A DNA stretch of 64,000 nucleotides from NCBI RefSeq assembly GCF_002113885.1, contig NW_018408922.1, positions 382,462-446,461 of the forward strand, read 5' to 3'. Numbering within the stretch: position 1 is the first letter of the stretch; each line of letters opens with the position of its first letter. Positions 19,443 through 55,513 of the stretch are shown in pieces. Made by a program: the position numbers and the translations under genes. Source of the DNA: Mizuhopecten yessoensis. Lineage: Eukaryota. A model generated the notes under the pieces. The model did no database searches. It saw only the letters and a program-made list of their open reading frames with translations, and was not told where the DNA came from.

Positions 19443-21038
19443 CTGAAACACAAATCAGGTAGATGTTTATGCATTTATCAAGTTCTATAACAATAAATAA
19501 TTATATTTAAAGCAATGAAAATGGAGAGGGAACATATATATGATATCAATACAGTTAGAGATTCCTGCAATGCCTCAATTATCAAAAGGCACAACAACAT
19601 CAATTAACAAGTAATGGAGAACAAGTTCAATCAACGATATGCCAGCGGACACAGACCTTACAGATCTATGCTCTACCGCTAATCTATAGAGAAATCCATA
19701 CAAGCCAAACATGGGGAACGTTAACACTCGAAACGAAGCGCGTCTCTAACCAATAACAGAATCCATTATTGCTTCTGTAAATTGACAAAGCAACATTGAT
19801 TGAGAACATTATCAAAATAATATCTTAAAACATATTAATAGATTGCTGTTCATTCAAGGTAGATATATTCCCTAGGTCAATACAGAGATTACTTTTATTA
19901 GTCTTTGAAATGACACTAGGTTCTGTTTTTCTGAAATTTAAATTACATAGTGCACGTTCGTCGGGACGGTATCACAAATTGCCATCATATTGACGAAATG
20001 TAATCCCAACAACAAACAGATTATACATACAGATCAAGATTCAATGTAATGTTTGTAGTTTTTGGGTATTGACGGGCAAAATCAATTCCTAAAAAGGAAG
20101 AGTAGCTAAGATAAAGAAATGAAAAGATGGTGGTTCATTGTTTCCATTCTACAGTAGGCTGGAAACGTCTGAACACAACATACTTCCTGATATGATGGGC
20201 CAATGGCCTAAAGTTCGAATAAGACTTGATATACGTTACACACGTCAGTGCTATGCCGGATAATGGAAGGGTGGGTGTGTTTTCAGTTTAAAGCATGAGT
20301 AATCACCAGTATTTCCTCAGGATAATATTTTCGTACTATTTCGCGATCTATAAGAAACGATCACAAACTCAAATATATCTTGAAATCATTTATTCCGTCA
20401 CAATTAAGGGGAAAATACATCATGATTTGTCGTTCCTTTTGCTTTTTTAAATCCATGAAAAATAAATGTTTCGAAGAGAACAAGCATCCAAAGTGTATGC
20501 TCGCGAAAAGTACTTGATTTGCAGTATATTAGTGTCTTGGGGTTATTATATAATATCACTGCAGTAGCGATTTACGACAACTTTTACTATGTATAAGCGC
20601 GTAGCGTTTACTACATGATAAGCTCGTATAGGCGCGTTTTGGCTTATCCACTGTTCCATAGAAATCGTTCTACACAGTGTACACATGAATTTAACCGACA
20701 ATATCTTATCGTAGTTTCGCATTTTTTTATGTGTACCTGATGCTGATGTTAGCTGCCCCCATGTGTGATGACTGACTCATAAATATACCTATTCTGAAAC
20801 AACAATCCCTAGATACTGCACGTGCAATGCGGAAGGTGCACGTTGATCATGCTATCGTCACACTGAAAAAAATGTTAACTTACCACAAAAGTTCATGGCA
20901 TATCGTATAGTTTAAAATCCGGAATTGCTACCTGACAAGTTAGCTTATAGGTGAAAATAATAAGCCTTACTTTACACGGTAGTACTTTAAAAAACACAAT
21001 TGACTCTTGTTACAGAATATATTATTAATTACCTCCAT
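18486..21038 (-). CDS. Kelch-repeat beta-propeller, nitrile-specifier-protein-like, 320 aa; join complement(21033..21038,18486..19442)
   Basis: Kelch blades with GG motifs (RSSH..FGGE, FGGR, RSFH..FGG, GRGG..VGGF, RSVF..GEVDPSDLGH, RGW..FGGN..NERLND) match the plant specifier-protein family. ATGGAG|GTAATT splices in phase 0 to TTTCAG|TGC. Confidence 0.88.
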
Positions 21039-31012: not shown

Positions 31013-31233
31013 TTAGATATACATGGTACCCTTACGACAGTTTCCGCCCCTGACGTGATCAAAAATACTAGAAACCATAGTAACCGTTTTCATTTTCCGG
31101 TTTTGTCAAATGTATAAGGAACCATGGTAACTGCATCTGTTGCTGATGTGATCAAATATAAGGAACCATATGGCGACCGTTTCTGTCGTAAATGTGATCA
31201 AATATACATGGTGCCATGGTGACTGTTACCATC
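31013..31233 (-). repeat. Degenerate 46-nt tandem repeat of the BTBD7 C-terminal codons and stop
   Basis: Stops at 31198, 31152, 31106, 31059 and 31013, each preceded by TAY-ATY or TAT-TTT. Confidence 0.8.
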
Positions 31234-31350
31234 ACCAATGTCCAGCTCAAACTCTTCCTGAACGCGGACCTGTCCCATGGAGGAGGTTGCCATAGCAATG
31301 TCGGGCATAACGTCACTTAAGGCACTGTCACTACAAGGACTGGTGTTGGA
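31198..31350 (-). CDS. BTBD7: BTBD7 last coding exon
   Basis: TTTTCCAG acceptor; SNTSPCSDSALSDVMPDIAMAT...HHGTMYI*. Confidence 0.82.
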   Translation of the reverse strand, partial: SNTSPCSDSALSDVMPDIAMATSSMGQVRVQEEFELDIGDGNSHHGTMYI

Positions 31351-34300
31351 CTGGAAAACAAATCGTAACATTTTAATTCTCAAATATGAATACCGTTGAA
31401 CCTCATAAGCCGATACATTTTTAAGTCCTAAAAATACTGAAATAACAAATAACAATTTCCAGGATTATTAAAAAAAAAACGATAAGATTGAAAAAGGTAA
31501 AAAATATATCTCCAGATTTTCCTAGCCAATATTTACACGTTTCCATCATCGTTGGGCTTGGTCGTGTGGTCAAACAACTTGTTTTGGTTTTGATTATTAC
31601 TGGTAAATAGAGGTTTCCCAACGATTAACTGTTGGTTATCATGTTTATCTCACTCGAGTTAGTTAATTTTCAAACTGTATAAAGACATGGTTTTTGAGAG
31701 TCATGATAATCAACCATTACAACCTTTGTGACGTTTTTCTTCCACAACATTCAGATATTATCATCTAGAAAACTGCATGATTCTCTTGAGAATGCATTAC
31801 TCCTGTTTTCTGGACTTTATCATGTACTTTTTGAATTTCCAATGATTATGCTATCATTTATGTAAACATAAGTTCTTTGGATGCTAAGTTTAATAGACAA
31901 TGACAGATGTGTCTTATAATAAGCTATACCTCTTTTGACCTGCTGGGCTGGGTGCGGCTGGAAGTAACAGACACTACAGGCTTGGTAGGGCTTCCCATCT
32001 TGCTGCTGTGGCGGCTCAGCGGTGGACTGTTTTTCCGCCGAACTGGGGAGGAGTGATAACGCCGACCTTGTCTTAGCTGCAGTGATGCCGGCACAGACTC
32101 ACTATTAGAGTAATACCTTTGACTGTTCTGTAATATTTCAATGGTGATGTCTGGTAGACCAAACTCCCGTACTGTCCTGAGTTGAAGCTGGCAGTTGATG
32201 GCACGTCTGTCGCTGTAAGCCAGACTGGTTGCACGCTGACATAACTTGCTGCTCTGGAGCTCCTGTTCTCTCTGAAGCATCAGCTTTAAGGTGTTGGAGT
32301 CTGGTACTGAAAAAAAATTGTTTCTTGATGAAAATGCAATCCCAGGATGTGTACAATATAATCGCTAAATCTACCACGATCACTGATCTGACAGTTCTAC
32401 TAAATAGCCAGTGTTTCGGGGACAAATTTCCCTTTTCTATTCAAATGTGTTCCAGTAACACAGCTGTTCCATAATGAAATCCAATCACTAAATAGGGAAC
32501 AATGGGGATTTGATATGCTAGTCCCAACTCAACTGTCCAGGCTTCTATTTAAGTAATTTTATATTTAGACTTAAACTGTCCAATAATGTCTCTATAAAAT
32601 AAATTATAACATCTGTTTTCATTTCTTTCATAAAATATATCTCAAGCAAACCACTTTTAAGAGTGCAAAATAAACTAGGGTAAGGCTACTGAGTAATATG
32701 TTCTGGTGATCCCTTAAGTCACCAAGGAAAGATAACTGGCATAGTCTTCTAAAGGGTGACGGGAACTGGTTATACTAATTATAAAATAACTTTTGCTCTT
32801 TGAAAATTTCTATCAGAAAAGACTTGTACTAAAACCTTGTCACAGCAGTCCAAGGGAGATAACTGCACACAAAAAGTTGAAAATAGGAAAGGAATTTATA
32901 TTTTGCGCGGTTGACTACAAGGAATTAGCGCGAAATTGTTTTCTCTAATGGTACCCCGATAGGTGGCGACACCTGTAGGGCATGTGTAGCACGTGCAGCA
33001 AGTGTTGCTGGGACCTCAGTTCAGGTCAACGCACGGGTCAGGACGGAGGTATAGAAAATTTTATTTTTCTGAAAAAATAGTGGTAAATGTCTAGGAGATA
33101 CATTGTAGATGTGTAGGATAAAATATACATGACAAATTGTTGTAAAATGTTGTTTGAAATTATTATTAATAATTAAACAGTCACTGGTGCAGGCCGGTGC
33201 GTTGTGAACAGCCTATGGGTGTTTGTTGTTGCCACCTGGGGGGGGGGGTAATTAGAGAAGGGTCATTTCCCTCTGTCTCAAAAAAAGTGCAATATTGAAA
33301 ACAAAATAATGCAATGCCCAAAACCCAATTTTTCACCAATTAATTAATACTCATTATATTTTATACGGTTTATTTTTCAACCATTAATCATACCTACATA
33401 TTTAAAGGATGTTTTGTGACAAAATTATTGATATTTTAACAATGGAGTGTTTAATATTAAAACTCTGCAATTTCGACACAAAATATTCACATCTGAATTT
33501 TTTGAAGCGTAAAACGTCTTGAAATTGTCTTCCCTAAATTTTCTTCTTACAGTATTGTATTGAGGAAAGTTTTATGAGTCTGGATTTCTCTTGCACCAAA
33601 AAGTGTTTCTCAACATAAGCATTAAGATGTAAAACAAAGCCCCTATAAGTAAACATTTGCTAACTTTAACACTTAATTAACAGATGCCAAAGTTGTCTCC
33701 CATACGATTTTTACCTGTTATATATAGGATCATGTAGGGTGTGGGATATTATTTCTAATCTCCTTGGTTGTGATAAAGTTGAAATTATAGCATTTTGTAA
33801 TCCAATAATATCTAATTATTGGTATGAAAGTATTTTTTTTCACCCAAATATTATTCTTTCATAACACTATAAGACAAGGTAGTGAAAGTAAAGACTCAAA
33901 TGAAGGTATGTTTGAGATATAAATTTTTCATATCCTTCCCATTGATATATTATAGGGCCAATACTCCTACCTGGAATGGTGCCTGCGATTATGTCAACCG
34001 TTGAACTACTGGTCAAGCCCTGGTAACCAGAGGCCTGAGGATAGTGTGTTTCGTCCACCATGTACAGTGTGTCGGGGATGGCTGACATCTGGATTGTCCG
34101 TACTCGTCCAGTGTCCGAGTCCTGGCCCTGCGACAGAAACTCATCCCGCATGGACTGTGGAACAAAATTCAAAACAACATTATTTTCATCTATGTTTCAA
34201 ATAATCAGATAATATTAAATCAATTCCTTATAACATTCCTTACATTTCTCAAGTTTAAAAAAAAAGTTTTGTTAGCGATAACTATTTTACTTTTAAGACT

Positions 34301-37300
34301 CTTTTCATCAATATTTTATGAAAAGTAAATAACTGAAAATCCAATATTCAATAGCAAATAAAAAAAATTATGTTACAAAAGTAAGATTGTCCTACATATA
34401 AATTTAACAATTTAGTCTGGGCTATAAGACAACTGGAGTCTGAACTTGAAGCAAATAAAGTTGGAGTCTGAACTTGAAGCAAATTCAGTCTGAGCTATGA
34501 GATAAATGAAATCTGAATTAAAGGGTGTTTTTTCGAGAAATCAAGAGCAACTTGAATTTTTTAGTACCTTAGCTTCTTCAAAGTAGGGTGTGAAGATGCG
34601 CGGTCTCATAAACATGCCATTGTGTTTACTTCTGATCCAGGCACAAACTCTCTGTCCCCCCGTCGCCTCGTCTCCCAACATGTGGGAGGGAGGCGTGCTC
34701 ACCAAACCCCGCTTTATTGCACTATTAAGTACTTCACAATTATAAGGAATGATATGGTCGACACGAATCAGGGGAAGTAACTCTGCCAAGATGTCCCTCA
34801 GTTCTATGTCATTTAAATCTCTCTTCTTGACACCTTTCTTGCTTATACTGTGAGTGGTGTGACTCAGTAAGTTGGGTTCTGGAAAGAAATGTACATACAA
34901 TCTGTCATACATTAGATACATCAATGACATATATACAATGTACATTACAGTGTTTGTAATGGTTTTACCAGACAAAAATTAAAGTAAGTTTGCATTGTGC
35001 AGGTTTTTTTAGGCACATTACAGTAATGACATGACTCACACCTACAAAGTACAAAATGCAATTAACTAAAAGATCAATTTCTTTAAGGGCATGTATAGGA
35101 GGTTCTGGTTATTTTGGTTGCATTCACCAACAACTACAGCAAAAAACTAATATTTGTTATCAAAGTCAATGACACCAGATGATGGATCAACTCTCTATGT
35201 TATTTGGAGAATGCAATACAAACAGTGTCCTATGTACAGATGTTATACAGGCCGATACCTGTACAGTACATCTGAACTAAGTAACTGGACGCTGTACCTC
35301 TCTCCTCTATACGGCGAATCAGCTGATGTTCTCCCCACTTCAGGACGGCTGTTAGGACATCCAATTCTCCTGCCTAAAACACAGATGTCAACATTTAAAC
35401 TAATTCTTCTGCCTTAAACACCTGTTTTGCTGTTGAATCCACAAGTAATTGGGATTGTCATTTTAAAATTGAAAAATAAAAAATAAATCTTGTGACATTT
35501 TTTGACAACTGAGTCATTTGTTTGTATAATTGAACACTATGTGTCCTCCACAACAGGCTATTTAGGCAAAATGTCTGTAAAATATGCTTCAAAGGAAAAA
35601 CTTTAACATTTAATATGGAAGATTTACCTGTATGAAGTCTGAACTGAATGTCTCTATCAGGTACTCAACACTGAAGATTTACCTGTAGGAACTCTGAACT
35701 GAGTGATTTACCTGTAGGAAGTCTGAACTGAATGTCTCTATCAGGTACTCAACACTGCAGATTTACCTGTAGGAAGTCTGAACTGAATGTCTCTATCAGG
35801 TACCCAACACTGAAGATTTCCCTGTAGGAAGTCTGAACTGAGTGCCTCTATCAGGTAATCAACACTGAAGATTTACCTGTAGGAAGTCTGAACTGGATGT
35901 CTCTATCAGGTACTCAACACTGAAGATTAACCTGTAGGAAGTCTGAACTGAGTGCCTCTATCAGGTACTCAACGCTGAAGTTTTACCTGTAGGAAGTCTG
36001 ATCTGAATGATTTACCTGTATGAAGTCTGAACTGAATGTCTCTATCAGGAACTCAACACTGAAGATTTACCTGGAGGAAGTCTAAACCGAGTGCCTCTAT
36101 CAGGTACTCAACGCTGAAGTTTTACCTGTAGGAAGTCTGAACCGAGTGATTTTCCTGTAGGAAGTCTGAACTGGATGTCTCTATCAGGTACTCAACACTG
36201 AATATTTACCTGTAGGAAGTCTGAACCGAGGGATTTACCTGTAGGAAGTCTGAACTGAGTGCCTCCATCTGGTACTAAACACTGAAGATTTACCTGTATG
36301 AAGTCTGAACTGAATGTCTATCAGGTCCTCCACACTGAAGTTTTACCTGTAGGAAGTCTGATCTGAATGATTTACCTGTATGAAGTCTGAACTGAATGTC
36401 TCTATCAGATACTCAACACTGAAGATTTACCTGTAGTAAGTCTGAACTGAGTGCCTCTTTCTGGTACTAAACACTGAAGATTTACCTGTAGAAAGTGAGT
36501 GATTTACCTGTAGGAGGTCTGAACTGAGTGATTTACCTGTAGGAGGTCTGAACTGAGTGATTTACCTGTAGGAAGACTGAACTGAATGTCTATCAGGTAC
36601 TCAACGCTGAAGTTTTACCTGTAGGAAGTCTGATCTGAATGATTTACCTGTATGAAGTCTGAACTGAATGTCTATCAGGTCCTCCACACTGAAGTTTTAC
36701 CTGTAGGAAGTCTGATCTGAATGATTTACCTGTATGAAGTCTGAACTGAATGTCTATCAGGTACTCCTCACTGAAGTTTTACCTGTAGGAAGTCTGATCT
36801 GAATGATTTACCTGTATGAAGTCTGAACTGAATGTCTATCAGGTCCTCCACACTGAAGTTTTACCTGTAGGAAGTCTGATCTGAATGATTTACCTGTATG
36901 AAGTCTGAACTGAATGTCTCTATCAGATACTCAACACTGAAGATTTCCCTGTAGGAAGTCTGAACTGAGTGATTTACCTGTAGGAAGTCTGAACTGAGTG
37001 CCATTATATATATATAATTATCAGGTACTCAACACTGAAGATTTACCTGGAGGAAGTCTGAACCGAGTGATTTACCTGTAGGAAGTCTGAACTCAGTGCC
37101 TCTATTAGGTACTCTTTACTGAGATCCAGAAGAACAGGTGAGTGAATGACTTGTAGGAACTCCTCCCTCAGGTAGTGCAGTGCCTGGCGGTGGACCCACT
37201 GGGAACCGTGGGGCTCAGAACTCCAGTTGAGGATGTTGATCAGATTGTCTATGCCAATATTTTCCACTATGATGTCTTCACAACCTGTTCATTAAAACAT

Positions 37301-39015
37301 TACACTTTATTTTTTTGGGAAACTGGGGAACATGGCTTTCTCTGGATCAAAGTTAGGTAAAATGAACTCTACCTGTTTTTCTTACTTTTCTAAAGAATAC
37401 ATGATTTTTTCCGAGTCCTCATAGTTACAAAATCGCTATGCAAAATCTTAGGAAAATGTAATAGTGTTTTGCCCTTTTTTTTATTTATTTTTTAGTTTTA
37501 TCTTTCAAATTAAGAACAAAATTTCAATGTTATTAGGAAATATACATTTAGGAATCACCAAGACTTTACATTAATTATATAATTATAGTACAATGCATTT
37601 TCAGTTGTTTAAAATGGCACCACTTTTTATAATTTTACTAGCTGCGGGAACCGAAGTTTCTAGGCCCGATCCGATCCTTTTTTGGGGTTTTTTAAAGATT
37701 GGGCCTAGAAGCTACGGTTCCGCAGCTACAATTTTACAAGCAGACAGGACTTATGAGATATACTTTCTTAGTCAGTAGTACATATATGTAACAAAATTTT
37801 ACTGGGTTCAACATTATATTTCATTATTAGATAAAGATAAAAAGATGGCCTTATTTTCTACTTACCCTGTGACAAGATTGGGAAGTCAAGGAACTGCCCT
37901 ATTTGGTACACCTCCATGGCCTCATCTACTATGGTCATCTGTCCCTTGCCTGCCACGATTGCTTGAGCCTCGCTCAGACTACACATACTTGCACTTCCCC
38001 GTAGTATTAACGACAAATCTACCGTGTCCTGATATATTGCATTCAATAACACTCTCGCATAACGCCTAGGAATGACCGATTCGTCCAACACAATTCTAGT
38101 AGGTGTATGTAAAGTACGGTCAGTGATTTCCTCCCCTGACCGAGCTCTCCTCAGTAGAAGGTTCCTAAAGGATGGTGACCGAGCAGCCAGTATAGCTTTA
38201 TGGCAGTAGAGTTCATGCTGGGTCGTTTTGCAAGGAAAGTCATTGCTAGTGTATGACTCAGTCATCGATACAGACATTGGATCAGGCATGTCTGCCACTA
38301 AGTCGCAGGAAAATACTAGCACAGCATCCCTATAGTCACCAGTGTCTAACAGATTCCGTAAGTCCTGTTCTAGAGGATTCGGCATTCCAAACTCCTCTAC
38401 CAGCTTTATTAGCACTTTTTTGTGTTCGTGTTTTAAATCCTCTGTCTTTATGGAGTCAGTATACAGGTAACGTAGAAGCGACGCGAACAAGGTCACATCG
38501 ACTCCTGCTGTTCTGAAGTTGATGGGAACCTGCATATTAAAGTCTGGATACCTACTCAACAGGTTTCTGAAGTACGGACTCCTCATGGACAAGAGCGCCC
38601 GGTGGGCCGGAAAACATGCCCCTCGATACACAAGGTCGACATCTGAAGAGAACTTTTTATCGAACAAGTTTGTCAAATCCTGACGGAAGGAACTGGCTGG
38701 AGGTCTAGCAAGATTGGCTGCCAGAGCCACCTCCTTCAGAGAAGCCAACGCTTCGTACTCCTGTATCAGAGCCTTGACTTCAGCCAGGGACCAGGATGAA
38801 GTGAGGTCACGCAATGCCTTTCCGTAATCCAGAGATCGGCTGTGTCGCCGAGCTCTCGTTAGTTTCTTCCGTAATGTTGCAAACTTTGAGGCTTTTTTCT
38901 TCTTTTCGCGAACATTTATATCTGTATCAGATACTGTATAGGCATGAGCAAGTCTAGAGAAGGCGGCTCGAGCCACCTGCTGGGAACTCTCCGGAAAGGA
39001 GGAGTTGACTCCCAT
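31198..39015 (-). CDS. BTBD7: BTB/POZ domain-containing protein 7, 819 aa; join complement(37866..39015,37076..37284,35298..35373,34568..34878,33971..34154,31930..32306,31198..31350)
   Basis: MGVNSS myristoylation-type N-terminus; REKKKKASKFATLRKKL; two BTB domains (FPAHRALLSMRSPYF, LYCHKAILAARSPSF); BACK region (GCEDII..WVHRQALHYLREEF..SDFLQ, KWGEHQL, EPNLLSHTTHSISKKGVKKRDL). All intron phases are consistent. Confidence 0.93.
31930..32306 (-). CDS. BTBD7: BTBD7 coding exon 6
   Basis: VPDSNTLKLMLQREQEL...QLQLRTVREFGLPD...SRSKE. Confidence 0.87.
33971..34154 (-). CDS. BTBD7: BTBD7 coding exon 5
   Basis: SMRDEF...MSAIPDTLYMV...GTIP; CAG acceptor and GTAGGA donor. Confidence 0.88.
34568..34878 (-). 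CDS. BTBD7: BTBD7 coding exon 4
   Basis: EPNLLSHTTHS...PRIFTPYFEEAK. Confidence 0.92.
35298..35373 (-). CDS. BTBD7: BTBD7 coding exon 3 (76 nt)
   Basis: AGELDVLTAVLKWGEHQLIRRIEER; TTTTAG acceptor and GTACAG donor. Confidence 0.92.
35620..37075 (-). repeat. Tandem array of 55-nt and 29-nt units copied from the BTBD7 exon end and 5' splice site
   Basis: Plus-strand unit gatttacctgtaggaagtctgaactgaatgtctctatcaggtactcaacactgaa matches the exon end at 37076-37125 plus the donor; about 33 units. Confidence 0.95.
37076..37284 (-). CDS. BTBD7: BTBD7 coding exon 2 (209 nt)
   Basis: GCEDIIVENIGIDNLINILNWS...LSSDFLQ; CAG acceptor and CAG|GTAAAT donor. Confidence 0.93.
37639..37728. mobile_element. 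Small hairpin MITE in a BTBD7 intron
   Basis: TAGCTGCGGGAACCG..TAGGCCC / GGGCCTAG..CGGTTCCGCAGCTA; TA at both ends. Confidence 0.65.
37866..39015 (-). CDS. BTBD7: BTBD7 coding exon 1 (two BTB domains)
   Basis: ORF 37858..39015; Kozak-like CACCATGG; G|GTAAG donor. Confidence 0.95.
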
Positions 39016-41069
39016 GGTGAAGCCGAATGGTGCACAACCACTGATATCACCGATGTCAGTTAAAGGTCATTCTTGCAGGTCACTCAGCATTCTCAATCAT
39101 ACCTAACACAAAATGTGACGGGTCAGTTTTCATCTTTGTCACTCATATCTAAAAGGAAGAAAATGTAGAATAAGATAACAACAAAGATTTTAACAAAATT
39201 AAACCATCATAATACCACATCAACTTATGCATACATAGCAACAGACATCTTGTAACAGATCATACATATAATAGAAAAAGAAACAATCTCCACAACAAGT
39301 CTTTAGTACTTTCTTGTCATTAAGGATATTCTCAGTGGGACAGAGAAGTGGTGGATGAAATGTGGGACAACCACTTTAGTGATTGTTCGATAATCGGATA
39401 ACCATGTATAGAAGTAGGTGGATTAAAGAAGCTGGATAGTGGGACAAAAATACTAGTGGTAGCTGGATAGCTTTAGTGGGACAAGCAGATTACGGGTTGC
39501 TGGATAACTGAGGATGGAAAATATGACAACCAGATTAGCTGTAGATCAGAGATAGTGGGACAACTAGATTAGTGTAGGCTGGATAAATGAGGCTTATATG
39601 CATTTGAACGATCAGTTTAGTGATGGCTGTGACCATGACCATGGACTTAAAATGCTTGATAACACGAAGATATATATATTTCCCTGTAAGGAACCACATG
39701 GTCTTAATTAATATTAAATTCACTGTGAAGTCATCAGCCATATACACTGATGTTTACTATTTTATAAATAGACAAGGAAGACATCTGATACAGATGATGC
39801 TTCATATATGTGTGTACATTATATTGGATACATTAATGGGCGTATGTTACACTACCATTTGCTATTTCCTATATGAACCTGTCATAATAACAGATGTTGT
39901 GTTTTAATTCTAATTAAACTGTAAGTCTACATATGTAACGGTGAATGACTCACTCACAGTACACAGTACACTTGATATATCTATACAAGAACACCTACGT
40001 GTATAATTATATGAGAGAAAAAAAACAAGATTTTAACACAAATTGGAACATTTAAGGTCTGCAGGTACGTTTACATTAACACGCTGTACAATTAAAGTAA
40101 AATACACCTAGATGTACAGTGGTAACATATAAAGCGTTTATCTTTAATAAAGGCACCTTACATATGTACATGTCTATCAATATTGGTTTCACCTTTAATC
40201 ACAGGTATACCTACACTGTACACCAGAGTAATGAATGTAAAAACAGCCCCACACAATATACCTTGATAAACAGATCTATTTTTGGTCTTGTATAATGGTA
40301 CACACTAATATTTCCTGGGTTGACGAAACAAACATATTTTTCTTTTATTTTCTATATTGTATTTCATGCATCCTAATAATCGATAACCTTTTCCAGTAGC
40401 CAGTCTATATTTGCACATAAAGCCAGGGTGCATATATCAATATTAGCCAAACTTATGTACCTTAATAAATAATCGAATCAACATTTGTATATTACGTATT
40501 TACATTCATATGTTTGACAAACAATGCATCGTGATCGATGAACTGTCAGAGAAATATTAAAGTATATGTAGCCCCTAGCGCTGTATACAGTCCCACAAAT
40601 ACACAATAAACACATTCATATAGTGCAAAGTACAGTAATTAAATACACAGGTAAGAAGTGTGGTTGCGGAGACGTCTGCTTAAATTATCTATGCAACGTC
40701 TGTAAGATAGAATTTCACTTAATTTTTAAGAATTTTTAAATCAATCTTAAAAATCGAGATCACCAACAATATCCAAATGGAAAGATACAAGATAAATACA
40801 GTAAAATAGTTTATTACTACAATCATGTTTCAGCATTTTTTTAGCATTATTATGAGGGTTGGCGATACATAGAACAGTATGTTTAAGACAAGATAAAACA
40901 CAGACTTTCACATACATGTTTGCTGGTGGAAACGGCATAACTTACCTCACACTCTTTATCACAACAGAAATCATCAAGTAACAACAGCAGAGATTAAAGA
41001 CAAGTCCCATCGTGTATCACTTTTTACAACAACAAGCCTCTAAACACTTCTGTTTCACCTAGCTTTTTA

Positions 41070-44000: not shown

Positions 44001-44600
44001 ACCTTGTATACCTACACCTGTCTGTGTATTGCACTGTATACCTACACCTGTCTGTGTATTGCACTGTATGCCTACACCTGTCTGTGTATCACTCTGTATA
44101 CCCACATTTGTCTGCAGTGTATCACACCTTGTATGCCTACACCTGTCTGTGTATCACTCTGTATACCCACACCTGTCTGTGTATCACACCTTGTATACCT
44201 ACACCTGTCTGTGTATTGCACTGTATACCTACACCTGTCTGTGTATTGCACTGTATGCCTACACCTGTCTGTGTATCACTCTGTATACCCACATTTGTCT
44301 GCAGTGTATCACACCTTGTATGCCTACACCTGTCTGTGTATCACTCTGTATACCCACACCTGTCTGTGTATCACACCTTGTATACCTACACCTGTCTGTG
44401 TATTGCACTGTATACCTACACCTGTCTGTGTATTGCACTGTATGCCTACACCTGTCTGTGTATCACTCTGTATACCCACATTTGTCTGCAGTGTATCACA
44501 ACTTGTATACCTACACCTGTCTGTGTATCACTCTGTATATATACATACACCTGTCTGTATATCACACCTTGTATACCTACACATGTTTCACCTTCTATAC
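41070..44600. repeat. Minisatellite (30/32/35-nt monomers; 65-nt higher-order dimer in the core)
   Basis: Variants of tatacctacacctgtctgtgtatcacaccttg; near-perfect 65-nt period at about 41610-43060. Confidence 0.97.
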
Positions 44601-47600
44601 TTATCTAGGTAATAGTGACACAGCACAAAATAACTAGGTATATGTATATTAACTTTTTAAGAACAACATATTTCTATCTTTGTAGATCTTTAGCAATTAT
44701 AGGACATCTTCAAGCACAAATGTATAAGATTTTGTTTACAATACTTGCATATGTCAAGAAAATAGAAACTCAAAAGCCTTTCATAAGAATGTCTGATAAT
44801 TACTGAAATCTTACCACTTGACTGCATAAGCTAAATAGAAACCCAGTCGTAGAAACACTATATATATTCTCTATATAGATTAAATATAACCATCAATCAT
44901 CATGTGTACAATACTTACACTCCAGTCAAGTACATGTGTCAATATGTAGTGTAGAGACTAATTTTGATTAGTGATCTAACTTTGTAATAGCTTTTGGCAG
45001 TGCTGTATGCATGGCCCCTACGTACACATAGCTGCAGTTTTAAACTCCGGCTTTCGTGGCATTTTAATCTCCATGAAGCAAGATTTTTTTTGCATGTGTG
45101 TGAACACTAAGATTTGTTTACAATACAGTCTAAAAGCTATGTTTAGGATGTGTTTAATTATGGAACATCTGCCCTACAACAAAACATGTTCTGTATTCTG
45201 TATATATGTAAATCTGTGTCATGCACAAAGTATATACCTATAACTTTTACGTTGTAGGAGTTGAAATGTCTGATATTCATTAGAACCTTACCCTGGCTTT
45301 CGTTGCCAGCCCGACTTCAAAGTAGCAGCAGAGATCTCCCTGATTTATCAGTTAAGGGCTCCACCCCTCCCACAGATATATAGGGCGGAGACTCCCTTTC
45401 ACTTTAGCTAACTAGAACTAAAACATGACCCCCATTGCAACTGCTGCAGTCTCATATTTCTTCATTTTATCAAGCCAGTATGTCCAGATTAAACTGGCTC
45501 CTGTAAATGATGTGATGGGCAAATTGTAAACAACTTCAAAAACTGTTGATAGCGGGATTCCTCTAAACAGCAGAGATTCCATCAAAGCTATCTGGGGATG
45601 TTTTAGACCAAGCATATGGCACTAAACAGACAATAGAGACAAAGATTTCAGTTTAAGGCCAAGGAAAAAAATGCTGTTGCTAGGTATAAGCATACGTCTT
45701 AATTATCAAAGCTTGTAAACAAATCCAGAATGTTGGTGTCTTTATTCTATTTTTTGCTAATTTTTGGGAACAAAATTGTTTAAGATTCCTGTTTTAATTT
45801 ACAGAATTTAATATTACTGATTTACTGTGGAAAAAAAGGTAAGAATTTTCACAAAACATTTTAAGGAAGAGAACATGCAGACTGCACACAACAATTGAAC
45901 ACTTTTGTCAATGCCTCCATTACAAAGTTTACCTATCAGTATATATATATATTCACTGTGAAATAGAAAATACATTATTCATGACACTTTTGATTTCCTT
46001 TAAAAAAATAAAGATATTCATTTTGGGAAATTTCGAAATAGTTTACCATTAATATAATTCAACATCGAATAATGGCTAAATGTTTACCCAAATGATACCC
46101 ACCCCCCCACCCCCCCAGTGATGTAAGAACAGAAATATCACACACACATCATTACATGTATGTATACACTTCTTTTTAAGATAACCAAGAAAGTATACCT
46201 CACTTTTAATCAATCACTGATTGTGCATGTGTTTCATATGATAATTCCAAGTGAAACATGTTTTTATCGACTTGGCCTTTGGCATACTGTTTGGTGTACT
46301 GCTAGTATATTTATCAAACAAGTTAAACAGCCTTGGAATATCTAATGCAGTCTGTAAATCGGTCGCATGAACAGAACAACACTGATACAATACTGACCTA
46401 TATAGGGTTTAGAACTTATCTTTTTAATAAAAAATTGCTGTGTTCATTATCTGAAAAAATATCATGATGTCGGTCAACTAAGATGTTCTGTCATTATCCA
46501 TGATATCTGTAACTGTATGATACTGGAACATGCGTTCCCGAAATCGCTGTTGCCTAAAAACAAGTTTCAGTTACCAGGTACTATTTTTATAGGACTTTGA
46601 CCCATAATTTGGGCTTTTCATATGTATATTATCTTTTAAGAATGTGGACCTGGATATTTTTTTTAACTAAGATAGTGCGAAATGTAGTACAGTACATTTA
46701 CATTACAGGTAGATGTTATATCTTAGAATGCAGTTTTTAAAATTTATCAATATTTACACTATAAAATGTTTGTAAAATATCGGTCAAATGAATATGGTAT
46801 TGGGATTAATTTCTGGTTCCATTGACTGACTGAGACTGACATGGTCCATCAAGTCTTGAAAGTATGAACAAATTCAAACTGAATGTAACACTGCTTTCAC
46901 GATCAGTTCTTGAGATAAATTATATGAACATCTGAGAGAATGGTACCGGTACATTAAATTGAAGATTGATTTATGGTAAATAATTAAAAAAAAATGTAAC
47001 AGCAAAGTTTAAGGAAACACAAATGTTGTGGAAATCTAATCTTGCTTTTAAAATTATTCATTAAACATACAGGAGATACATTTCAATCAAAAGAGCAGTT
47101 TTCTTCAGAAAATTTTGGAACTCAGTTATGCTTTAATTTCCCTGTGGGATTCACCGCCCATTTTGAGAACCCATTATATCTCTTAGTAATGGAAATCATC
47201 AAAATCTTGTTAAAGATGTTCAGGTCTCACCTGAAAGTCTACAAAAATCACTGACGTTTGGTCACAACCTTTCGTTAGTGGGTGTCATGCACACCATTTT
47301 AAATTACAAAATGCCAAAACTATTATTTGGCGGTCCTGTTAAAAGTTAAACTTCCAATGTAAACATGTATGTTATATATGTGAATGTTGATTTAACACAC
47401 TGCTATTCTCCTATGGGACTCAATACATAAATACTATTCAGTGAATTCTACAAATTCAATGTGCAGTTCTTTAATCAAGGACTGTTGCCAGAAGAATCAA
47501 CAGTTTCTTGTATCTATGTTGTAACGTCTCAGTGGGATAACACTATAAAAGAGTCATGATTCTAAATGCTTCAAACTCAAAGTGAAAATTATAACTCTCA

Positions 47601-48640
47601 ATTTAAACTGTCTCAATTGCATAACACCTATTTACAAAATTTACAAAATTGTATATAGTATAAATTGTATTTGCTGTCTCAATCTCCTAATATAACCTCA
47701 TAAATTCCACAGGACCAATCTCTCGTACTCACTATCAGACACTGTAGTAGTATAGCTGTTAATATTTAAATCTCAAAGAACAGATCTCTAGTCCATGACT
47801 CTCAATCGATGCATGGTACTGATCTAACGCTCCTTAGGCCATGAGCAAGGAATAAATGTACGACTATCAACATAGACTAAAATAATTGTTTTCTCAAATA
47901 CTGCCGTTTGCCCCTTTCCTTGTTGATTATGATAGTCCACAAGTATTTTAAAGCAAAATCAAATGAAATTGTATGTTATATCAATAACATCTCTTAAAAA
48001 AAAAAAAAATCACCTCGCGCACACCTACATAAAATTCTTCCTACTGCAAAATTGAGGGTGAAACACGAAGAAAAGTTTTTAATCAATAGAAACATTTAAA
48101 ACAATATTTATAACACAAAAATATATTTTTATATTAGGGCAAAACAAACTTTCACATTAGGGTGAAATGACCTGTTGTGCAAACAGGATTTGGGGTGAAA
48201 CGACCCAGATCCGTACTACTCTGAAAAAAGATACATATTGAAAGGGTGTCAGGTCATTGTCAAGTCCTGTTCACCCTTGGTTGTTTCGCACTAAGTTGTT
48301 TCGCCCTTAAATATTTCTAGAGTGAAATAGTTTAGTCCTGTTTAGTTGTGTATGGTAAAGACAGTCTAATCTCAAGCTTTTCTATATATATCTCTTTTAG
48401 CCTTTTTTGTCATTAGACTCGTTAGATTTGTATGTGGTTGAACGGATCTGCACATACAATTGTAGCTACACCTGCATTCTTCCGACAACACAATTGTTTG
48501 TGATACAAAAAATAAAACGCTTTTTAATTAATTTTAAACATTTCAACAGATATTTATCACTTAAAAATATACATATATATATATTAGGGCAAAACAACCT
48601 TGGACGAACTGGATTTAGGGGGAAACAACCCGGATCCATT

Positions 48641-48754
48641 GAAAGTGCATGTCCAGACTGGGAGTCAGGCCTGAGACCTTCTGAACTCAAGAAAGATGCA
48701 CTACCAATTGAGCTATCTGGTTGCTGACGAATGACCCAGTCCAGTTCCTCTACA
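48641..48754 (-). mobile_element. Solo LTR-like fragment of the tRNA-LTR TRIM family
   Basis: Minus strand begins TGTAGAGGAACTGGACTGGGT and contains TAGCTCAATTGGTAG; similar to 56430-56560. Confidence 0.5.
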
Positions 48755-49279
48755 AATTGATTGCAAACCTCTATTAATAGTATTATAAATAAAGTGAATA
48801 AAAATACGTTTCGCTTCATGAGATTTCACCCTCACCTGCAATTTACATTTTTCTTATAGCCATAACGTCACATCAATATATTCAGCACAGGTGCACATCA
48901 TATAAGTATGACCAGCACCTGTATTATTCCGTTCATCTGTCATCTGGATACCAAATGCCCAATGGGTGACATTTTGAAATGGGAATACATCTATTAACGA
49001 AATTAGGACGAACAGGAAAGGGTGAAAGATCCCGGGAGATAATACGTCTCAGTGCAAATGAAAAGGGATTCCCATTTGGTTGAAAGTGTCTCCCTGGACC
49101 GGCCCCTACTTCGTACACGAATCGATGTAAGACTTATCATGACACCAGTGTGTAATGTACAATATACACAGTCAACACTGTGTTGTTTACTGCTCAGAGT
49201 TATGAAGACAACGGCACATAAGATACGATTCAGCCTTTTAGATTATTTTAGACATCATATCTGTTCTTTCCTAACTTAC

Positions 49280-49370
49280 CATGTCTGTTCTCCCGACTAA
49301 TGAAAAGAATAGTTCGCTCTTTAAAACGATAGCATTCCCTTCACCTTTTCCTTGACGTTCACATTCACTA
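49280..49370 (-). other. BTBD7: Probable non-coding first exon of BTBD7
   Basis: Strong donor gacATG|GTAAGT at 49280/49279 on the minus strand, about 300 bp from the COX8 start. The 5' end is a guess. Confidence 0.5.
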
Positions 49371-49595
49371 CAATTTTCTCATGACGTTAATTCCGCAGCA
49401 AATAAAATTAAAAAAATATATAAATGCATTTATTCTTTCCGTTATAAATTCAAATTTATTCTTATGTTTTAACCCTAGACGAAAATAAATATCAAAGATA
49501 TTTAGAAAAATATTTGTATTCTTTTGATTATAACATTTTCTGCGGACTAGTAAATCCGCCATTATACAATCTTTCATTCACGATCAGCTCTCACG
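49370..49595. promoter_or_regulatory. Putative bidirectional promoter between BTBD7 and COX8
   Basis: Short AT-rich interval between divergent first exons; YY1-like CCGCCATT at 49556-49563. Confidence 0.45.
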
Positions 49596-49718
49596 ATGGC
49601 GGGTGTAATGAGAGGTGTTGTGGGCGTTGCGTCCAGAATGTCCAGAGTATCGCCTGTAAAAACTCAAGTGAGGACCCTGCTGAACCCAAGTTTACCAGTG
49701 ACCCCACTGACCAAAGCA
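49596..49718 (+). CDS. COX8: COX8-like exon 1 (targeting peptide)
   Basis: cacgATGG start; GCA|GTAAGT donor. Confidence 0.85.
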
Positions 49719-52700
49719 GTAAGTAAATCGAACGTGGATAAAATGAATGGCAACATGAAGGGCAAAAGGGCATGTGCAAATTAATCCCAATACATCACGT
49801 AGCGTTCTATATCATATGGTGAATAAATAATATGACTCAGGCATGGCCTGGAGAGAGCGCAGCTCGTACATTTGTTTCGATAGTATACTATAATTTTTGA
49901 ATCATAACACTACCCATTTTAATACATACAAAATTTACCTGTTAATTGTTTTTTCCTAGTTGAATCTGTTGCTGGGCAAATCATTCATTTTGAAAACAGG
50001 CATTGCCTGAAACACAGGGCCACGTTACAATCACACATATGCTATACTGATACGGGTCACAACACATGTATATGTGTGTTGTGACCCGTATCAGTATAGC
50101 ATATGTGTGATTGTAACGTGGCCCTGTGCCTGAAACGAGAGACGCGTCTTAATTGCTGTTTTTTTTTCAATTTTATTTTCTAAATAACATTGTTTAAAAT
50201 ATTATCTATTTATTCGTTTTATAGCGATAAATGTAAAATTAATAATAAGTATAGAAAAGCATTCGAAGGAATTATGCAGTTCAAGAGAAAACACAAATGT
50301 ATTTACATGTAGTACTGTTGCATTTAATTGCCCAGTCTATGGCCTCAGCGTAATGTTGCGGAAAGAGTGAGGCCTAGAAGAGGGACTTCATATTTGAAGA
50401 TGTATTGTTTATCAAAATGTAACGGTTATTATCTGTTATTATAAAAGTTAAGTATATTGGTGATTAAATTCCAATTTTATTTTCCAACATAATATACTTT
50501 GCCTGATCCCTCTAAATCGTGTAAAAAGAGAATCACAATAGCCCAAACATAACCGGATTTCCGTCTGGTTTGGTAGTTACTATATACTTCCGGTTTGGGT
50601 GGAGAGAAGTAAAGACTGAAAATTTGAAAGAAGCTTCACTTTCTATAATTTAAATTTTTAATGTCACGAATTTACATAACCACAGAAACAAATTATCAAA
50701 TAAAGAGATATTTTTGAGAATGTGTAGCAAAGCTAAACAGCATCGTAAAAAAAAGTAACGCGGTAACTCTATACTAGCTACTTCCATGACGAAGGATTTT
50801 GGAACCATAGTATTTCGACGTTACCATGACTTCAATTGTTCGTACACATGTTACCGGAAAAGAGCTTCGCTTCTTGCGCCTCCTTCCGCGCAAAAAGAGC
50901 TGTGCTCTTCTTATTGTTTGCGATAACTTGTTTCATGTACTGTCGATCTACAATCATCTGTCGTTGTCGCATTCTGCCATGGTAAGTGTGATTTATCACA
51001 GAAGCCTGAAGTTCTGTCAAAAATGAATAATAACGGTAACACTATTTTTAGCTCACCTGGCACGAAGTTATGCCGTGGCGCGGCGTCGTCCGTCCGTCCG
51101 GCGTCAATATTTTAAGTTAAACGACTTCTTCTTTAAACCAAAAGGCCTATGGTGTCGATATTTGGCCAAAAGCTTGGGTGAAGGGCTGCCAAGTTTGTTC
51201 AAATGAATGACCTTCAATTATATTCAAGGTTACAGGGGTCAAATATGTGAAAAACATTGAACAACTTCCTCTCAATAACCAAAATGCCCAGGGTGATGAT
51301 ATTTAGTCAGTAGCATACTAGAATCAAGTGCTACCAAGTTTGTTTAAATGTATGACCTTGAATCATATTCAAGGTCACAAGAAGCAAATATGTTCAAAAT
51401 AAAAAAATAAAAACTTGTTCTGAATAACCACACTGCTCAGGATGGTGATATTTAGTCAGTAGCATGCTGGGATCAAGGACTACTATGTTTGTTAAAGTGA
51501 ATGACTTTGACTTATATTCAAGGTCACAGGGGTCAAATTTGTTCAAAATCTTTAAACGACCTCTTCTGAATAACCATGGGTCCCAGGATGTTGATACTTT
51601 GCAAGTTGCATTCTGAGATGAAAGGCTATAAAGTTTGTTCAACATAATGACTTTGTTCGACTTTCAATCACAGGTGTGAAATGTTTCAAAAAAAAAAACA
51701 GGTTCTTTTGAATAAATTTTCATCATAAATCACTCCTGTGCAGTTACCCATTTCAGTATTAATAATTTTATTACTGAAATGGGTAATAAAGTGAAATAAA
51801 TATGCACAAAGTTCTTTTACACATTATGAACAAAAAAGGGCGTCGTTCTTTCAACATAATCAAATAAAAAATACAATGAGGTACAATTGTGTACAAAAAT
51901 ATGTAAATTCATTTGTCTAAATTTATGTGAAAATGACAAATTGCATCACCTCCATTGCTTAATTATAGTATGTTGTAGAGTAGCTCTAAATAGCACACAT
52001 AAAAAACCATGCTCACCTGTCACATTTGCACTGGATAGTCCCATTGATTAAACGCTGAAGTCAATGGAGAACATTTAGTCTGTGATATGGTTTGTCCTTT
52101 TCACATCAGAATTGATAAATATTTGTGCACAAATGTACTTCATTGTGTTGTTTATTTGATTGACGCCCCTTTTTGCTCCAAGTGTTTAAAAGAACTTTGT
52201 GTGTTTTTATTTCACTTTATTCCCCATTTCAGTAATAAAATTATTACTCAAATGGGTAACTGTTACCCAGATGTAGGATTATTACACATATATGCGCCGT
52301 TGTGACCAACCTGTTACCTAGCTACATGCTAAAGCTAGTCCATACACCAGTAACTGTTGTGATGAATCACTGCAGTACCATAGCTACTTGTCTCGTCTGT
52401 TAATACACCAAATACAATTTATATTATGGGTGTATTGACAAACGATGCTAGTACCTATGGCAGTATAGTAAGTATACAACTGTAATGACTTGTCCATTTT
52501 GGCATTTATCATTTATAGCTGTGTATGAGTAACAGGAAAGATAATAGTGTGCTTCCACCGGAGATCGAACCCACGATCTCTAGGTTCCTAGTCGGACGCT
52601 CTACCACTGAGCTAAAGGGAAATTCCCTCTAGCTTGAAGCTAGAACTTAGTATAGAAGGCGACCGTAAATTAATTCAGGGGCCGCTATGGTTAGAAAAAA

Positions 52701-54951
52701 TGCCACTCAGATGAATATAACTGTGTGTGCTTATCCAAACCGAAACCAGGTAACTGTGTTTTCTTGTGCAATGAAATCGTTATAAATTAATCACATATTA
52801 TCACTAGCCTCCCGATAGGGTAATTTTCGTAGTTTCACTTCACTATTGTGAGCTGTCATTATGTCAATGCTGTGCACACGTATTTCAGTGCATCACTCTG
52901 GTCGGAACACTGACAATAGCTGCCGGTGAATTATGACTAAAGTTTCAACAGAATATCAGTCGATATTATGTTTACATTCAAAGTTTATTGTTACCATGTC
53001 TATGTTTGTACTGATCACAAGTGTTTTCAAGGTCTGTCAATCAGCAGTCAGGAGAGACATTTCTGCCCGGAATTCAATAAATACTAGCCTACATTTTAGG
53101 ACAGTTTCCGGGTATGTGAATTTGCTAACCAGATAGTACTCATACCCAAATTAAACCACAACCGGTATACGGTTACCCATTCCCCCCCTACGTAATTTTA
53201 TGCACACGTAAAATCTTCCACAGTTGTATTGAGATTAAAAAAAAAAAGCAAAATCGCATAAAACTACAGGTTTTATGGTTATGTTGACTATGAAAGCATA
53301 TACATTGGTGGTCGAGTGATGCAGTGGATAACACACTTGTCTTTCACCAAGGGCCCAGGGTTCGCTTCCACGATTAGGCATGAAGAGGTATTGGGTCTGT
53401 CACCTACCTGCACGTAGGTTTTCTATCGCTAACATCCAGGCCAACTAGAGTGATCAATATAAGTTGAAATAACTTGTTTCATAATTTTTGTTGAATAAAG
53501 TTCAAAAACACAACTCTATGTTGTTGTTTTCTTGTTAAAAAATATTGCGTGAAAACACTTGAAAGTGCCAATTTCTGATAGGTTAATGTAGCTATTATAG
53601 GTCTTACAGTTATATAGCTAGATCAGCACAGTGTACTGGATCTGTATTTCTCTTACCCTGGACAGGTGCACATGTATCCACACTTTTACTGGTGTGAGAT
53701 TTCGTTGTCTCGCCCTTGGGTCGAGACGGGGGGGGGGGGGGGGGGGGGGNNNNNNNNNNNNNNNNNNNNNNNNNNNNNNNNNNNNNNNNNNNNNNNNNNN
53801 NNNNNNNNNNNNNNNNNNNNNNNNNNNNNNNNNNNNNNNNNNNNNNNNNNNNNNNNNNNNNNNNNNNNNNNNNNNNNNNNNCCCCCCCCCCCCCCCCCCC
53901 CCCTTGTGGGTAAGATAGGGGAATCTCAACCCCCGTGCAAAGCCTCGTATTTGGCAACTTAAGAATCTTTCCATGAGGGTTGAGATTCTTCTATCTTACC
54001 CATAGAAATCAAGTAACTAGCGTAAGATTAATAGAATCTCTCACACCCTTGGGGGTGAGATTCTCCTATCTCACCCCCAAGGGTGTGAGAGATTCAATTA
54101 ATCTTACGCTAGTTACTTGAATAAAACCATAGTTGCTGGACACACTTATATGATGTGTATACATGTACATAATTAGTCCGAATTATTCTGACGTTTTATT
54201 GCCTTTTTTCATATCAGGTGTGTCGTCGATTAACGTCAGAACTCGGCCCTTTATAATATGCGACCCGTGCCCGGAGCGCACTTCAAACTGATATTTTAGA
54301 AACAAATCGTCCCTTTCACACACATGTCGCACGATATGCCTATTCCATATCACACCCAGTATCAACCCGAGACTCCAATATCATTTGAGGGTTGACGATA
54401 TAGAAAAAGGCATGTTTTCTTCTGACTATTACATGCTTCCTCTGCCGCCACATCGCCAATCATACCAATGACAGCAGACAGTTCTGGCACAATGGGTTGA
54501 TTGTTCTCCTGCTCAATAAAATATTCTAACTCAAGAATCCTATTGGCAACAGCTAGCAGAATCCAATGTTAGCTCCCCCAATTCGTAACCGTTTTTCAGC
54601 ATCAGCCACAGTTGAACTGTTGGTAAACAAGGGTTCCAAATGACGTTGTTGGTGGTAGATGGGAAAAATAAGAAGGGTTCCAAAAGGGGTGTGATAAATG
54701 TATCTGTAAGACTTTTTCCGCCTTAGGATGCATACTGCCCATGCATGAGGGCTCTTTTGTTACTTGTATCATTTCTAGCTATAGATCAGGTTTAAAGATT
54801 CTGATTAATCCCATTTTATCATTTTGCTTTATTTCAGGAGGTCTATGTAGGAGGAGTGATTGTCCAGCTTGGCATTTTCGGCCCGCCTTTCTATTTTATG
54901 TCGCAGATCTCCACGTACAGCAAACATCATCTACGAGGAGACAGACTTTAG
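49596..54951 (+). CDS. COX8: Cytochrome c oxidase subunit 8-like, mitochondrial precursor, 78 aa; join(49596..49718,54838..54951)
   Basis: MAGVMRGVVGVASRMSRVSPVKTQVRTLLNPSLPVTPLTKA|EVYVGGVIVQLGIFGPPFYFMSQISTYSKHHLRGDRL*. Arg/Ser-rich presequence with no acidic residues, one TM helix, COX8 pattern P-x3-L-x3-E-x3-G...P...Y. Phase-0 intron before the Glu, as in vertebrate COX8. AATAAA at 55198-55203. Confidence 0.82.
50013..50128. repeat. Perfect fold-back palindrome (54-bp stem) with 7-bp flanking direct repeat
   Basis: Arms 50013-50066 and 50075-50128; CCTGAAA at 50006-50012 and 50129-50135. Confidence 0.9.
51045..51700 (-). mobile_element. HINE-like element, opposite orientation
   Basis: TTTTTAGCTCACCTG terminus, (CGTC)n, and about 137-bp repeats containing TGACCTT..TCAAGGTCACAGGGGTCAAA. 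Confidence 0.75.
51741..52262. mobile_element. MITE with long imperfect TIRs
   Basis: CAGTTACCCATTTCAGTA... / ...TACTCAAATGGGTAACTG; more than 100 bp of inverted similarity. Confidence 0.8.
52529..52633 (-). pseudogene. tRNA-like sequence (repeat head or tRNA pseudogene)
   Basis: Perfect D-arm TAGCTCAGTGGTAGAGC and GGGTTCGATC, but the anticodon and T stems do not pair. Confidence 0.55.
53307..53500 (+). mobile_element. Degenerate tRNA-derived SINE fragment
   Basis: GGTGGTCGAGTGATGCAGTGGATAAC..GGGTTCGCTTCC head. Confidence 0.45.
53750..53881. other. Assembly gap between poly-G and poly-C runs
   Basis: N run. Confidence 0.99.
54009..54120. repeat. Near-perfect fold-back palindrome (53-bp stem, 1 mismatch)
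   Basis: Arms 54009-54061 and 54068-54120. Confidence 0.9.
54838..54951 (+). CDS. COX8: COX8-like exon 2 (TM helix)
   Basis: Polypyrimidine tract plus TTTCAG acceptor; TAG at 54949-54951. Confidence 0.85.
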   Translation, partial: EVYVGGVIVQLGIFGPPFYFMSQISTYSKHHLRGDRL

Positions 54952-55513
54952 AATAGAAACATGTCAAGTGGTGTGTTCGTTTACTGATGGGTAGAAAGAC
55001 GTCAGAAAGCTGAAAAAGTCCAAAGCCATTAACTGATCAGGAGAACATAACTCTACATCAAAGACAAAATTTTGAGGCTTAAGGACTGTTACACATTCTG
55101 TAAAGAGATTGAAGAGACTTGAGTTAGGGAAGAAATTGGACATTCGGTAAAAAAATTGTCATGAAGTTCTGTAGTTTTCTATCCATCCTTTGATGTTAAT
55201 AAAATTGTATTTGAATTAAAAATCTGGTTAAAAATTGAAATAGACTGGTTTCCATGTTTTTATGACTGTTGGGCAACAGTTACATGAAAGTTGAATAATT
55301 ACTAGATATTTTATGTCGGAAGCATCTGTATGACCAATAACAGTCTTGTATATCAAAATAATTGAGTTTTGCATAATTCACATGTTTATATCACTAGGAG
55401 CTAGAAAACCTACTTCGAAATCGTCAGAGTTATGGACGTTCTGTCAGTGCTTGAATACGTTACGCAATGTAGTGTCCGATAACGGATTCACATTGTCCGG
55501 AAAGGTGTAATTA

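What the first reader, a model, noticed from the sequence alone, without database searches (positions are those of the whole stretch)
49280..49718. BTBD7 and COX8 are head-to-head; possible bilaterian-old microsynteny
Seen: a minus-strand donor at 49280 (likely BTBD7 exon 1) and the plus-strand COX8 ATG at 49596 are 316 bp apart, with a YY1-like CCGCCATT between them. Established (from memory, needs verifying): human COX8C lies just upstream of BTBD7 on the opposite strand at 14q32, within UNC79. Inference: the divergent BTBD7-COX8 pair predates the protostome/deuterostome split. COX8C would then sit at the ancestral COX8 locus, and a shared promoter could couple a morphogenesis regulator to a respiratory subunit.
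Basis: partly seen in the sequence, partly recalled or inferred. Interest (0 to 1): 0.7.

Follow-up and report, generated by a model that had tools for sequence, protein, structure and literature searches.

The report
Hidden scallop COX8 gene facing BTBD7
A scallop genome carries a heavily transcribed two-exon gene for a 78-residue protein, likely the respiratory subunit COX8 that an earlier bivalve survey could not find, sitting back-to-back with the likely first exon of BTBD7, a pairing that may be as old as bilaterian animals but could not be checked in the lineages in between.

Summary
The layout is real; the evolutionary claim is plausible but untested. BTBD7 lies on the minus strand (start codon 39015). 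The plus-strand gene starts near 49571, and exon 1 splices to 54838 in 1,497-2,721 reads per run (3 raw-read runs), giving a 78-residue protein with a mitochondrial-type presequence and one hydrophobic helix. Its single phase-0 intron matches the human COX8A intron. No tool confirmed COX8: Pfam, PDB and 1.84 billion representatives gave no true hit, so identity rests on anatomy and recall (about 0.8). COX8 was reported missing from 31 bivalve transcriptomes. The 49280 exon is unique, faintly covered and ends a CpG-poor gene body, but no read links it to BTBD7 (about 0.65). Depth differs about 1,000-fold between the two sides, so tight co-regulation is unlikely. UNC79 is on another scaffold. 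No intermediate lineage could be tested; an unchecked note from this scan puts a sea-urchin COX8-like gene next to other genes. The scan found a similar hidden COX8 in that urchin, but not this pair. Ancient linkage: about 0.5.

The parts
49571..49718 (+). Exon 1 of the small gene: 25-base 5' UTR, ATG at 49596, 41 codons (presequence-like: 6 Arg/Lys, 0 Asp/Glu)
   Evidence: (molecules begin at 49571-49572 in 3 of 3 raw-read runs; depth 1,270-2,300)
49719..54837 (+). Single phase-0 GT-AG intron of the small gene (5,119 bases, contains repeats and an N gap)
   Evidence: loose ends at 49719 match 54839-54868 letter for letter
54838..54951 (+). Exon 2 coding part: 37 codons and stop; hydrophobic stretch (best 19-residue mean 1.43) then polar tail; AATAAA at 55198
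   Evidence: single copy in the genome
49280..49350 (-). Likely non-coding first exon of BTBD7; upstream end approximate
   Evidence: donor ranks 3 of 929 minus-strand GT sites in 39150-49560; depth 0.9, 1.5 and 0 in bin 49280-49355 and 0 in both flanking bins in the raw-read runs; unique sequence; junction not shown
49351..49570 (.). Putative shared promoter, about 220 bases, AT-rich core, CpG not depleted
   Evidence: CpG observed/expected 1.14 over 49280-49718 against 0.35-0.56 over the stretches towards BTBD7; no raw-read depth in 49356-49507
49556..49563 (+). CCGCCATT, YY1-like word (label recalled), 8-15 bases before the small gene's start site; a reverse copy overlaps the ATG at 49596-49602
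   Evidence: binding not tested
37864..39148 (-). First coding exon of BTBD7: acceptor before 39148, short upstream ORFs, ATG at 39015, two BTB domains
   Evidence: (PF00651, E 2e-22)
31201..37285 (-). Remaining six BTBD7 coding exons (BACK domain and C-terminal part)
   Evidence: tblastn of P0124; PF07707
48900..49126 (+). Rare upstream exon spliced to 49588, overlapping the likely BTBD7 first intron in antisense; left end not mapped
   Evidence: GT..AG joint 49126-49588 in 5 reads from 2 runs of one study, 0 in the other 2 runs

Best explanation
The plus-strand gene is a strongly transcribed, spliced two-exon gene whose 78-residue product is likely the scallop's COX8, predicted to be imported into mitochondria by its basic presequence and to sit in cytochrome c oxidase as one membrane helix, and it likely shares a roughly 220-base housekeeping promoter with the non-coding first exon of BTBD7. 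The promoter fires overwhelmingly towards the small gene. The tight spacing would hinder breaks between the two genes, which would explain why a COX8 paralogue still lies just upstream of BTBD7 in mammals. The pair would then be an old neighbourhood kept by promoter sharing, not a circuit that couples morphogenesis to respiration. Shown: transcription, splice, start site, BTBD7 identity, spacing. Inferred: COX8 identity (0.8), BTBD7 exon 1 (0.65), ancestry of the pair (0.5).
For: Splice 49718-54838 in 1,818, 2,721 and 1,497 reads (3 of 3 raw-read runs, 2 studies) and in a contig of a third study. Presequence-like exon 1 and single hydrophobic stretch. Phase-0 intron after codon 41; the human COX8A acceptor mutation c.115-1G>C places its intron in phase 0 after codon 38 (PMC7700678). 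By recall, not by a call, exon 2 carries the COX8 pattern in the register fixed by the intron (E at 1, G at 5, P at 16, aromatic at 19, Y at 27). Single copy. COX8 is expected in all bilaterians (PMC9346487) yet was not found in 31 bivalve transcriptomes (PMC8136519). CpG depletion runs from the BTBD7 exons up to about 49,000 and ends at the promoter. Human BTBD7, UNC79 and COX8C share one chromosome 14 interval (PMC6834745). Old pairs are mostly 5'-5' (54.8% against 26.7%) and a limpet and amphioxus keep 448-492 of them (PMC3514665), against about 1-6 chance pairs in a rough model.
Against: No homology hit for the small protein: Pfam, PF02285 over the genome, PDB sequences, word search at 26-84 residues, 1.84 billion representatives (2 hits, both long repeat proteins). 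These used single exons only, and the COX7C control also found nothing confident in this genome. No read joins the 49280 exon to BTBD7; two donors at 40945 and 48835 score higher; 1 of 3 raw-read runs had no depth there. The exact human order and distance are recalled, not shown. An unchecked note places a sea-urchin COX8-like gene between BROX and a palmitoyltransferase (e1-9087306). UNC79 and otubain are on other scaffolds.
Confidence: 0.5

Rival explanations
1. The gene is COX8 and faces BTBD7, but the match with mammalian COX8C is coincidence: both genes stayed on one ancestral linkage group and met twice.
For: Housekeeping genes often pair head-to-head; the rough model expects 1-6 such chance pairs per genome comparison, more if nested or near neighbours count; the urchin note (e1-9087306); in mammals the direct partner is UNC79 (recalled); only two end points are known.
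Against: Orientation matches too (recalled for human); genuine old pairs outnumber chance pairs; single-lineage losses of old pairs are common.
Confidence: 0.22
2. The small protein is a different single-helix mitochondrial subunit (COX7B, NDUFC1, NDUFA3, QCR10 and others also missed in bivalves) or a lineage-specific microprotein; the synteny story then falls.
For: All homology searches blank; seven small subunits were missed in the same survey; the hydrophobic stretch is modest.
Against: Two exons with a phase-0 intron at the COX8A position; recalled residue pattern fits COX8 without gaps; the searches are insensitive for 37 residues (control).
Confidence: 0.18
3. The 49280 exon is a weak divergent non-coding transcript of the strong small-gene promoter, and BTBD7 starts nearer its coding exon; the genes are neighbours 10 kb apart without a shared promoter.
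For: Depth about 1 at 49280-49355, no junction listed, unstranded libraries; stronger donor at 40945; a local CpG rise at 40350-40750 (0.92, 9 CpG).
Against: Coverage stops at the donor in the raw-read runs; no other extended CpG-rich stretch between 39150 and 48750; no pyrimidine-rich acceptor was listed within 320 bases of the 40945 donor. This rival leaves COX8 identity and adjacency intact.
Confidence: 0.1

Closest known systems
COX8 family (Pfam PF02285; mammalian COX8A, COX8B, COX8C; Drosophila COX8)
   Same: Size, basic presequence, one helix, two exons with a phase-0 intron near codon 40, very high expression; residue pattern by recall.
   Different: Too divergent for PF02285 or phmmer to score exon 2; C-terminal tail about 9 residues longer than recalled mammalian forms; intron 5.1 kb.
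Conserved ancestral microsyntenic pairs with 5'-5' orientation (Irimia et al. 2012, PMC3514665; example HSPE1-HSPD1)
   Same: Unrelated genes, divergent, under 1 kb apart.
   Different: Seen in one genome only; no co-expression shown; about 1,000-fold asymmetry; BTBD7 and COX8 do not occur in that paper's main text and its supplementary pair list could not be read.
Human 14q32 BTBD7 / UNC79 / COX8C locus
   Same: A COX8 gene upstream of BTBD7 on the opposite strand (recalled; same interval, COX8C near chr14:93.34 Mb).
   Different: COX8C is testis-enriched and, by recall, lies over 10 kb away inside UNC79, which is the direct divergent partner; the scallop has no UNC79 match on this scaffold.

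Membership tests
COX8 (PF02285) | Scores above the Pfam cut-off (24 bits) | tested here: not met
   No hit for either exon alone or in the genome scan; the model spans the intron and the joined protein was not scanned; the COX7C control was blank too
COX8 (PF02285) | N-terminal mitochondrial presequence | tested here: met
   6 basic, 0 acidic residues in 41; hydrophobic moment up to 0.58; composition only, import not tested
COX8 (PF02285) | One membrane helix near the C-terminus, 60-80 residues in all | tested here: inconclusive
   78 residues, one stretch with mean hydropathy 1.43; single-sequence model poor (pLDDT 60)
COX8 (PF02285) | Single phase-0 coding intron before the helix | tested here: met
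   After codon 41; human COX8A after codon 38
COX8 (PF02285) | Part of purified complex IV | not testable with these tools
   Needs proteomics
BTBD7 | Two BTB domains, BACK domain, conserved MG-x-N start, best hits BTBD7 | tested here: met
   (100% over 384 residues to the named Mizuhopecten yessoensis protein P0124, 98% to Pecten maximus)
Bidirectional promoter | Two divergent start sites under 1 kb apart | tested here: inconclusive
   Plus-strand start mapped; minus-strand exon faint, unstranded, junction not shown
Conserved ancestral microsyntenic pair | Same neighbours in several distant lineages | tested here: inconclusive
   19 metagenome BTBD7 loci, 11 scanned upstream (1.1-6.1 kb each), none showed a COX8-like exon, and none had a mapped start site; no animal genomes on hand

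The most novel reading that the evidence does not exclude
This is the missing bivalve COX8, and the BTBD7-COX8 head-to-head pair dates from the bilaterian ancestor, where COX8 itself first appears. The upstream side of BTBD7 would then be a map address for finding COX8 in animals where searches miss it, and testis-specific COX8C would be the copy left at the original site, later enclosed by UNC79.
Probability: 0.45. Interest if true: 0.58.

Novelty: new member of a known kind. Interest (0 to 1): 0.42.

Why it matters
Bivalve mitonuclear studies have had to leave COX8 out (PMC8136519). An expressed candidate with its exons mapped makes it testable and gives a seed for other molluscs. If the pair is ancient, it dates the COX8 locus and tells which vertebrate paralogue stayed put. 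It would still be one more of several hundred known old gene pairs, with no sign yet of functional coupling.

Tried and rejected
Complex prediction of exon 2 with a close scallop COX1 (P0153, 94% identical to this genome's COX1): no verdict, score 0.00, alignment not used; no evidence either way. Single-sequence fold of exon 2 was poor and Foldseek gave 0 matches. The protein atlas could not read the sequence. Exact look-ups of four single-exon or read-through forms: 0 of 4 in the collection; the spliced 78-residue form was not looked up. Synteny by neighbouring accession numbers: BTBD7 accessions were obtained for 10 clusters, but no COX8 entry could be fetched, so the test was not run. BTBD7 loci in prokaryote and viral collections: none. 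UNC79 or otubain as neighbours: other scaffolds; 60 kb downstream showed a Ras-family exon and no other useful Pfam hit among 6 ORFs scanned. A second plus-strand ATG|GT at 50979 as a further first exon: rejected, depth about 1 and the CpG-rich stretch before it is a repeat with at least 40 copies. The 49280 ATG as BTBD7 start: rejected. Reads were laid only on 48900-51150, so BTBD7's acceptor and coding exons were not examined in RNA. Papers that added nothing: 10.1101/2021.01.29.428898, PMC7339035, PMC12814845, PMC8369930.

Full report
Setting. The window is from a scallop. Its minus-strand BTB gene is BTBD7: PF00651 and PF07707 hit, the best named relatives are BTBD7 of molluscs, nemerteans, a brachiopod, amphioxus, hemichordates, a starfish and arthropods, and the named Mizuhopecten yessoensis protein P0124 maps on seven exons at 31201-39015, 100% identical over the first 384 residues. 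The conserved start is at 39015, so any exon further up is non-coding.

The small gene is real. Reads from 4 runs of 3 studies were laid on 48900-51150. In all 3 raw-read runs molecules begin at 49571-49572, depth over exon 1 is about 1,270-2,300, and 1,818, 2,721 and 1,497 reads leave the DNA at 49719 with letters that match 54839-54868. The spliced frame gives 78 residues. Exon 1 has 6 basic and no acidic residues and an amphipathic start; exon 2 has one hydrophobic stretch and a polar tail. The gene is single-copy.

Is it COX8? No tool says so. Pfam gave nothing for either exon, PF02285 missed it in the genome, phmmer against PDB gave 0, the word search found no candidate of 26-84 residues, and the search of 1.84 billion representatives returned 2 long repeat proteins. 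All of these saw one exon at a time, and the same genome scan found no confident COX7C either (best E 0.48), so the blanks are weak. For COX8: the size, the presequence, the single helix, the expression level, and a phase-0 intron after codon 41, where human COX8A has one after codon 38 (c.115-1G>C; PMC7700678, table passage). From recall only, exon 2 lines up with COX8 without gaps in the register that the intron fixes. COX8 is placed at the origin of bilaterians and found in the fly enzyme (PMC9346487, passages), yet it was one of seven subunits not found in any of 31 bivalve transcriptomes (PMC8136519, passages). I put the identity at 0.8.

Is 49280 the first exon of BTBD7? The donor exists and ranks 3 of 929 minus-strand GT sites between 39150 and 49560 under recalled weights. 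The sequence is unique. The bin 49280-49355 has depth 0.9, 1.5 and 0 in the raw-read runs with 0 in both flanking bins, and 77 against 11.8 and 0 in the contig run. No junction was listed (43 loose-end rows were not shown), the libraries are unstranded, and the BTBD7 acceptor was outside the stretch laid. CpG observed/expected is 0.46 over the coding span, 0.35-0.56 in the stretches up to 49279 outside the tandem array, and 1.14 at the promoter; this is what a methylated gene body ending at 49.3 kb would give (established for invertebrate housekeeping genes; methylation not measured). I put this at 0.65. A direct join would add short upstream ORFs to the BTBD7 leader.

The promoter. If both ends are right, the start sites are about 220 bases apart. 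CCGCCATT lies 8-15 bases before the plus-strand start and a reverse copy overlaps the ATG; the YY1 label is recalled and untested. Output is about 1,000-fold biased to the small gene, with the caveat that 5' ends of long mRNAs are under-sampled. Five reads show a rare upstream exon spliced to 49588.

Is the pair ancient? The human end is verified only coarsely: BTBD7, UNC79 and COX8C share a chromosome 14 interval (PMC6834745, passage), a COX8C-annotated variant lies at 14:93344034 (PMC11048214, supplement), BTBD7 and UNC79 fall in one 0.23 Mb cattle window (PMC9392250, passage) and share a testis eQTL (PMC11713753, abstract). Order, strand and distance are recalled. COX8C is a two-target, testis-enriched gene (PMC10877148, PMC13476344, PMC5448071; passages). 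In the scallop UNC79 and otubain match other scaffolds, although the assembly is fragmented. No intermediate lineage could be tested: 19 metagenome loci held BTBD7, 11 were scanned upstream, none showed a COX8-like exon, and their flanks were too short to mean anything. Unchecked notes of this scan put a sea-urchin COX8-like gene between BROX and a palmitoyltransferase, and a shark COX8 next to PSMD13, which by recall is the COX8B site. Prior odds favour ancestry: a limpet and amphioxus keep 448-492 old pairs and most human ones are 5'-5' (PMC3514665, passages), while a rough model with assumed gene numbers gives 1-6 chance pairs. Multiplying identity (0.8), human layout (0.9) and ancestry given both (0.7) gives about 0.5.

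Print. No paper linking COX8 and BTBD7 by synteny appeared in searches of the held library; subscription journals are not covered, and the supplementary pair list of PMC3514665 could not be read and may bear on this.

Verdict. The firm result is an expressed, apparently unrecorded two-exon gene that is probably the missing bivalve COX8, head-to-head with BTBD7. The ancient-pair reading is a fair hypothesis at even odds. The functional-coupling reading has no support. New member of a known kind; interest 0.42.

Noticed in passing
window 50013-50128: Perfect 54-base inverted repeat with an 8-base loop in the small gene's intron; reads with other letters pile on it, so probably a fold-back repeat element.
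   Followed up: partly
window 50540-50910: CpG-rich interspersed repeat with at least 40 copies at 88-93% identity; mimics a promoter.
   Followed up: yes
window 41070-44586: 3.5 kb tandem array (65-base unit, about 55 copies) with almost no CpG, in the likely first intron of BTBD7.
   Followed up: no
window 36003-37114: Tandem repeats in a BTBD7 intron whose unit resembles the end of the neighbouring exon and its donor (minus-strand CTTCCTACAGGTAAA); recalls the exon-boundary copies noted for urchin BTBD7 in e1-9972786.
   Followed up: no
window 49126-49588: Rare plus-strand splice from an upstream exon that overlaps the likely BTBD7 first exon in antisense (5 reads).
   Followed up: partly
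window 49353-49387: Two TGACGT words (CRE-like half sites, label recalled) near the likely BTBD7 start; the small gene starts in a TCTTTC pyrimidine run.
   Followed up: no
window 18489-19454: Single-exon kelch-repeat ORF of 322 codons on the minus strand.
   Followed up: no
window 3128-3358 and 9646-9972: Calmodulin-like EF-hand exons on the minus strand, with ATG|GT first-exon candidates at 15406 and 1429.
   Followed up: no
L015:4709-5143: Ras-family (Rho-like) GTPase exon about 55 kb beyond the window's right end.
   Followed up: no
window 49589-49590: Two-base variant in the small gene's 5' UTR in 51 reads of one run only, probably an allele.
   Followed up: no
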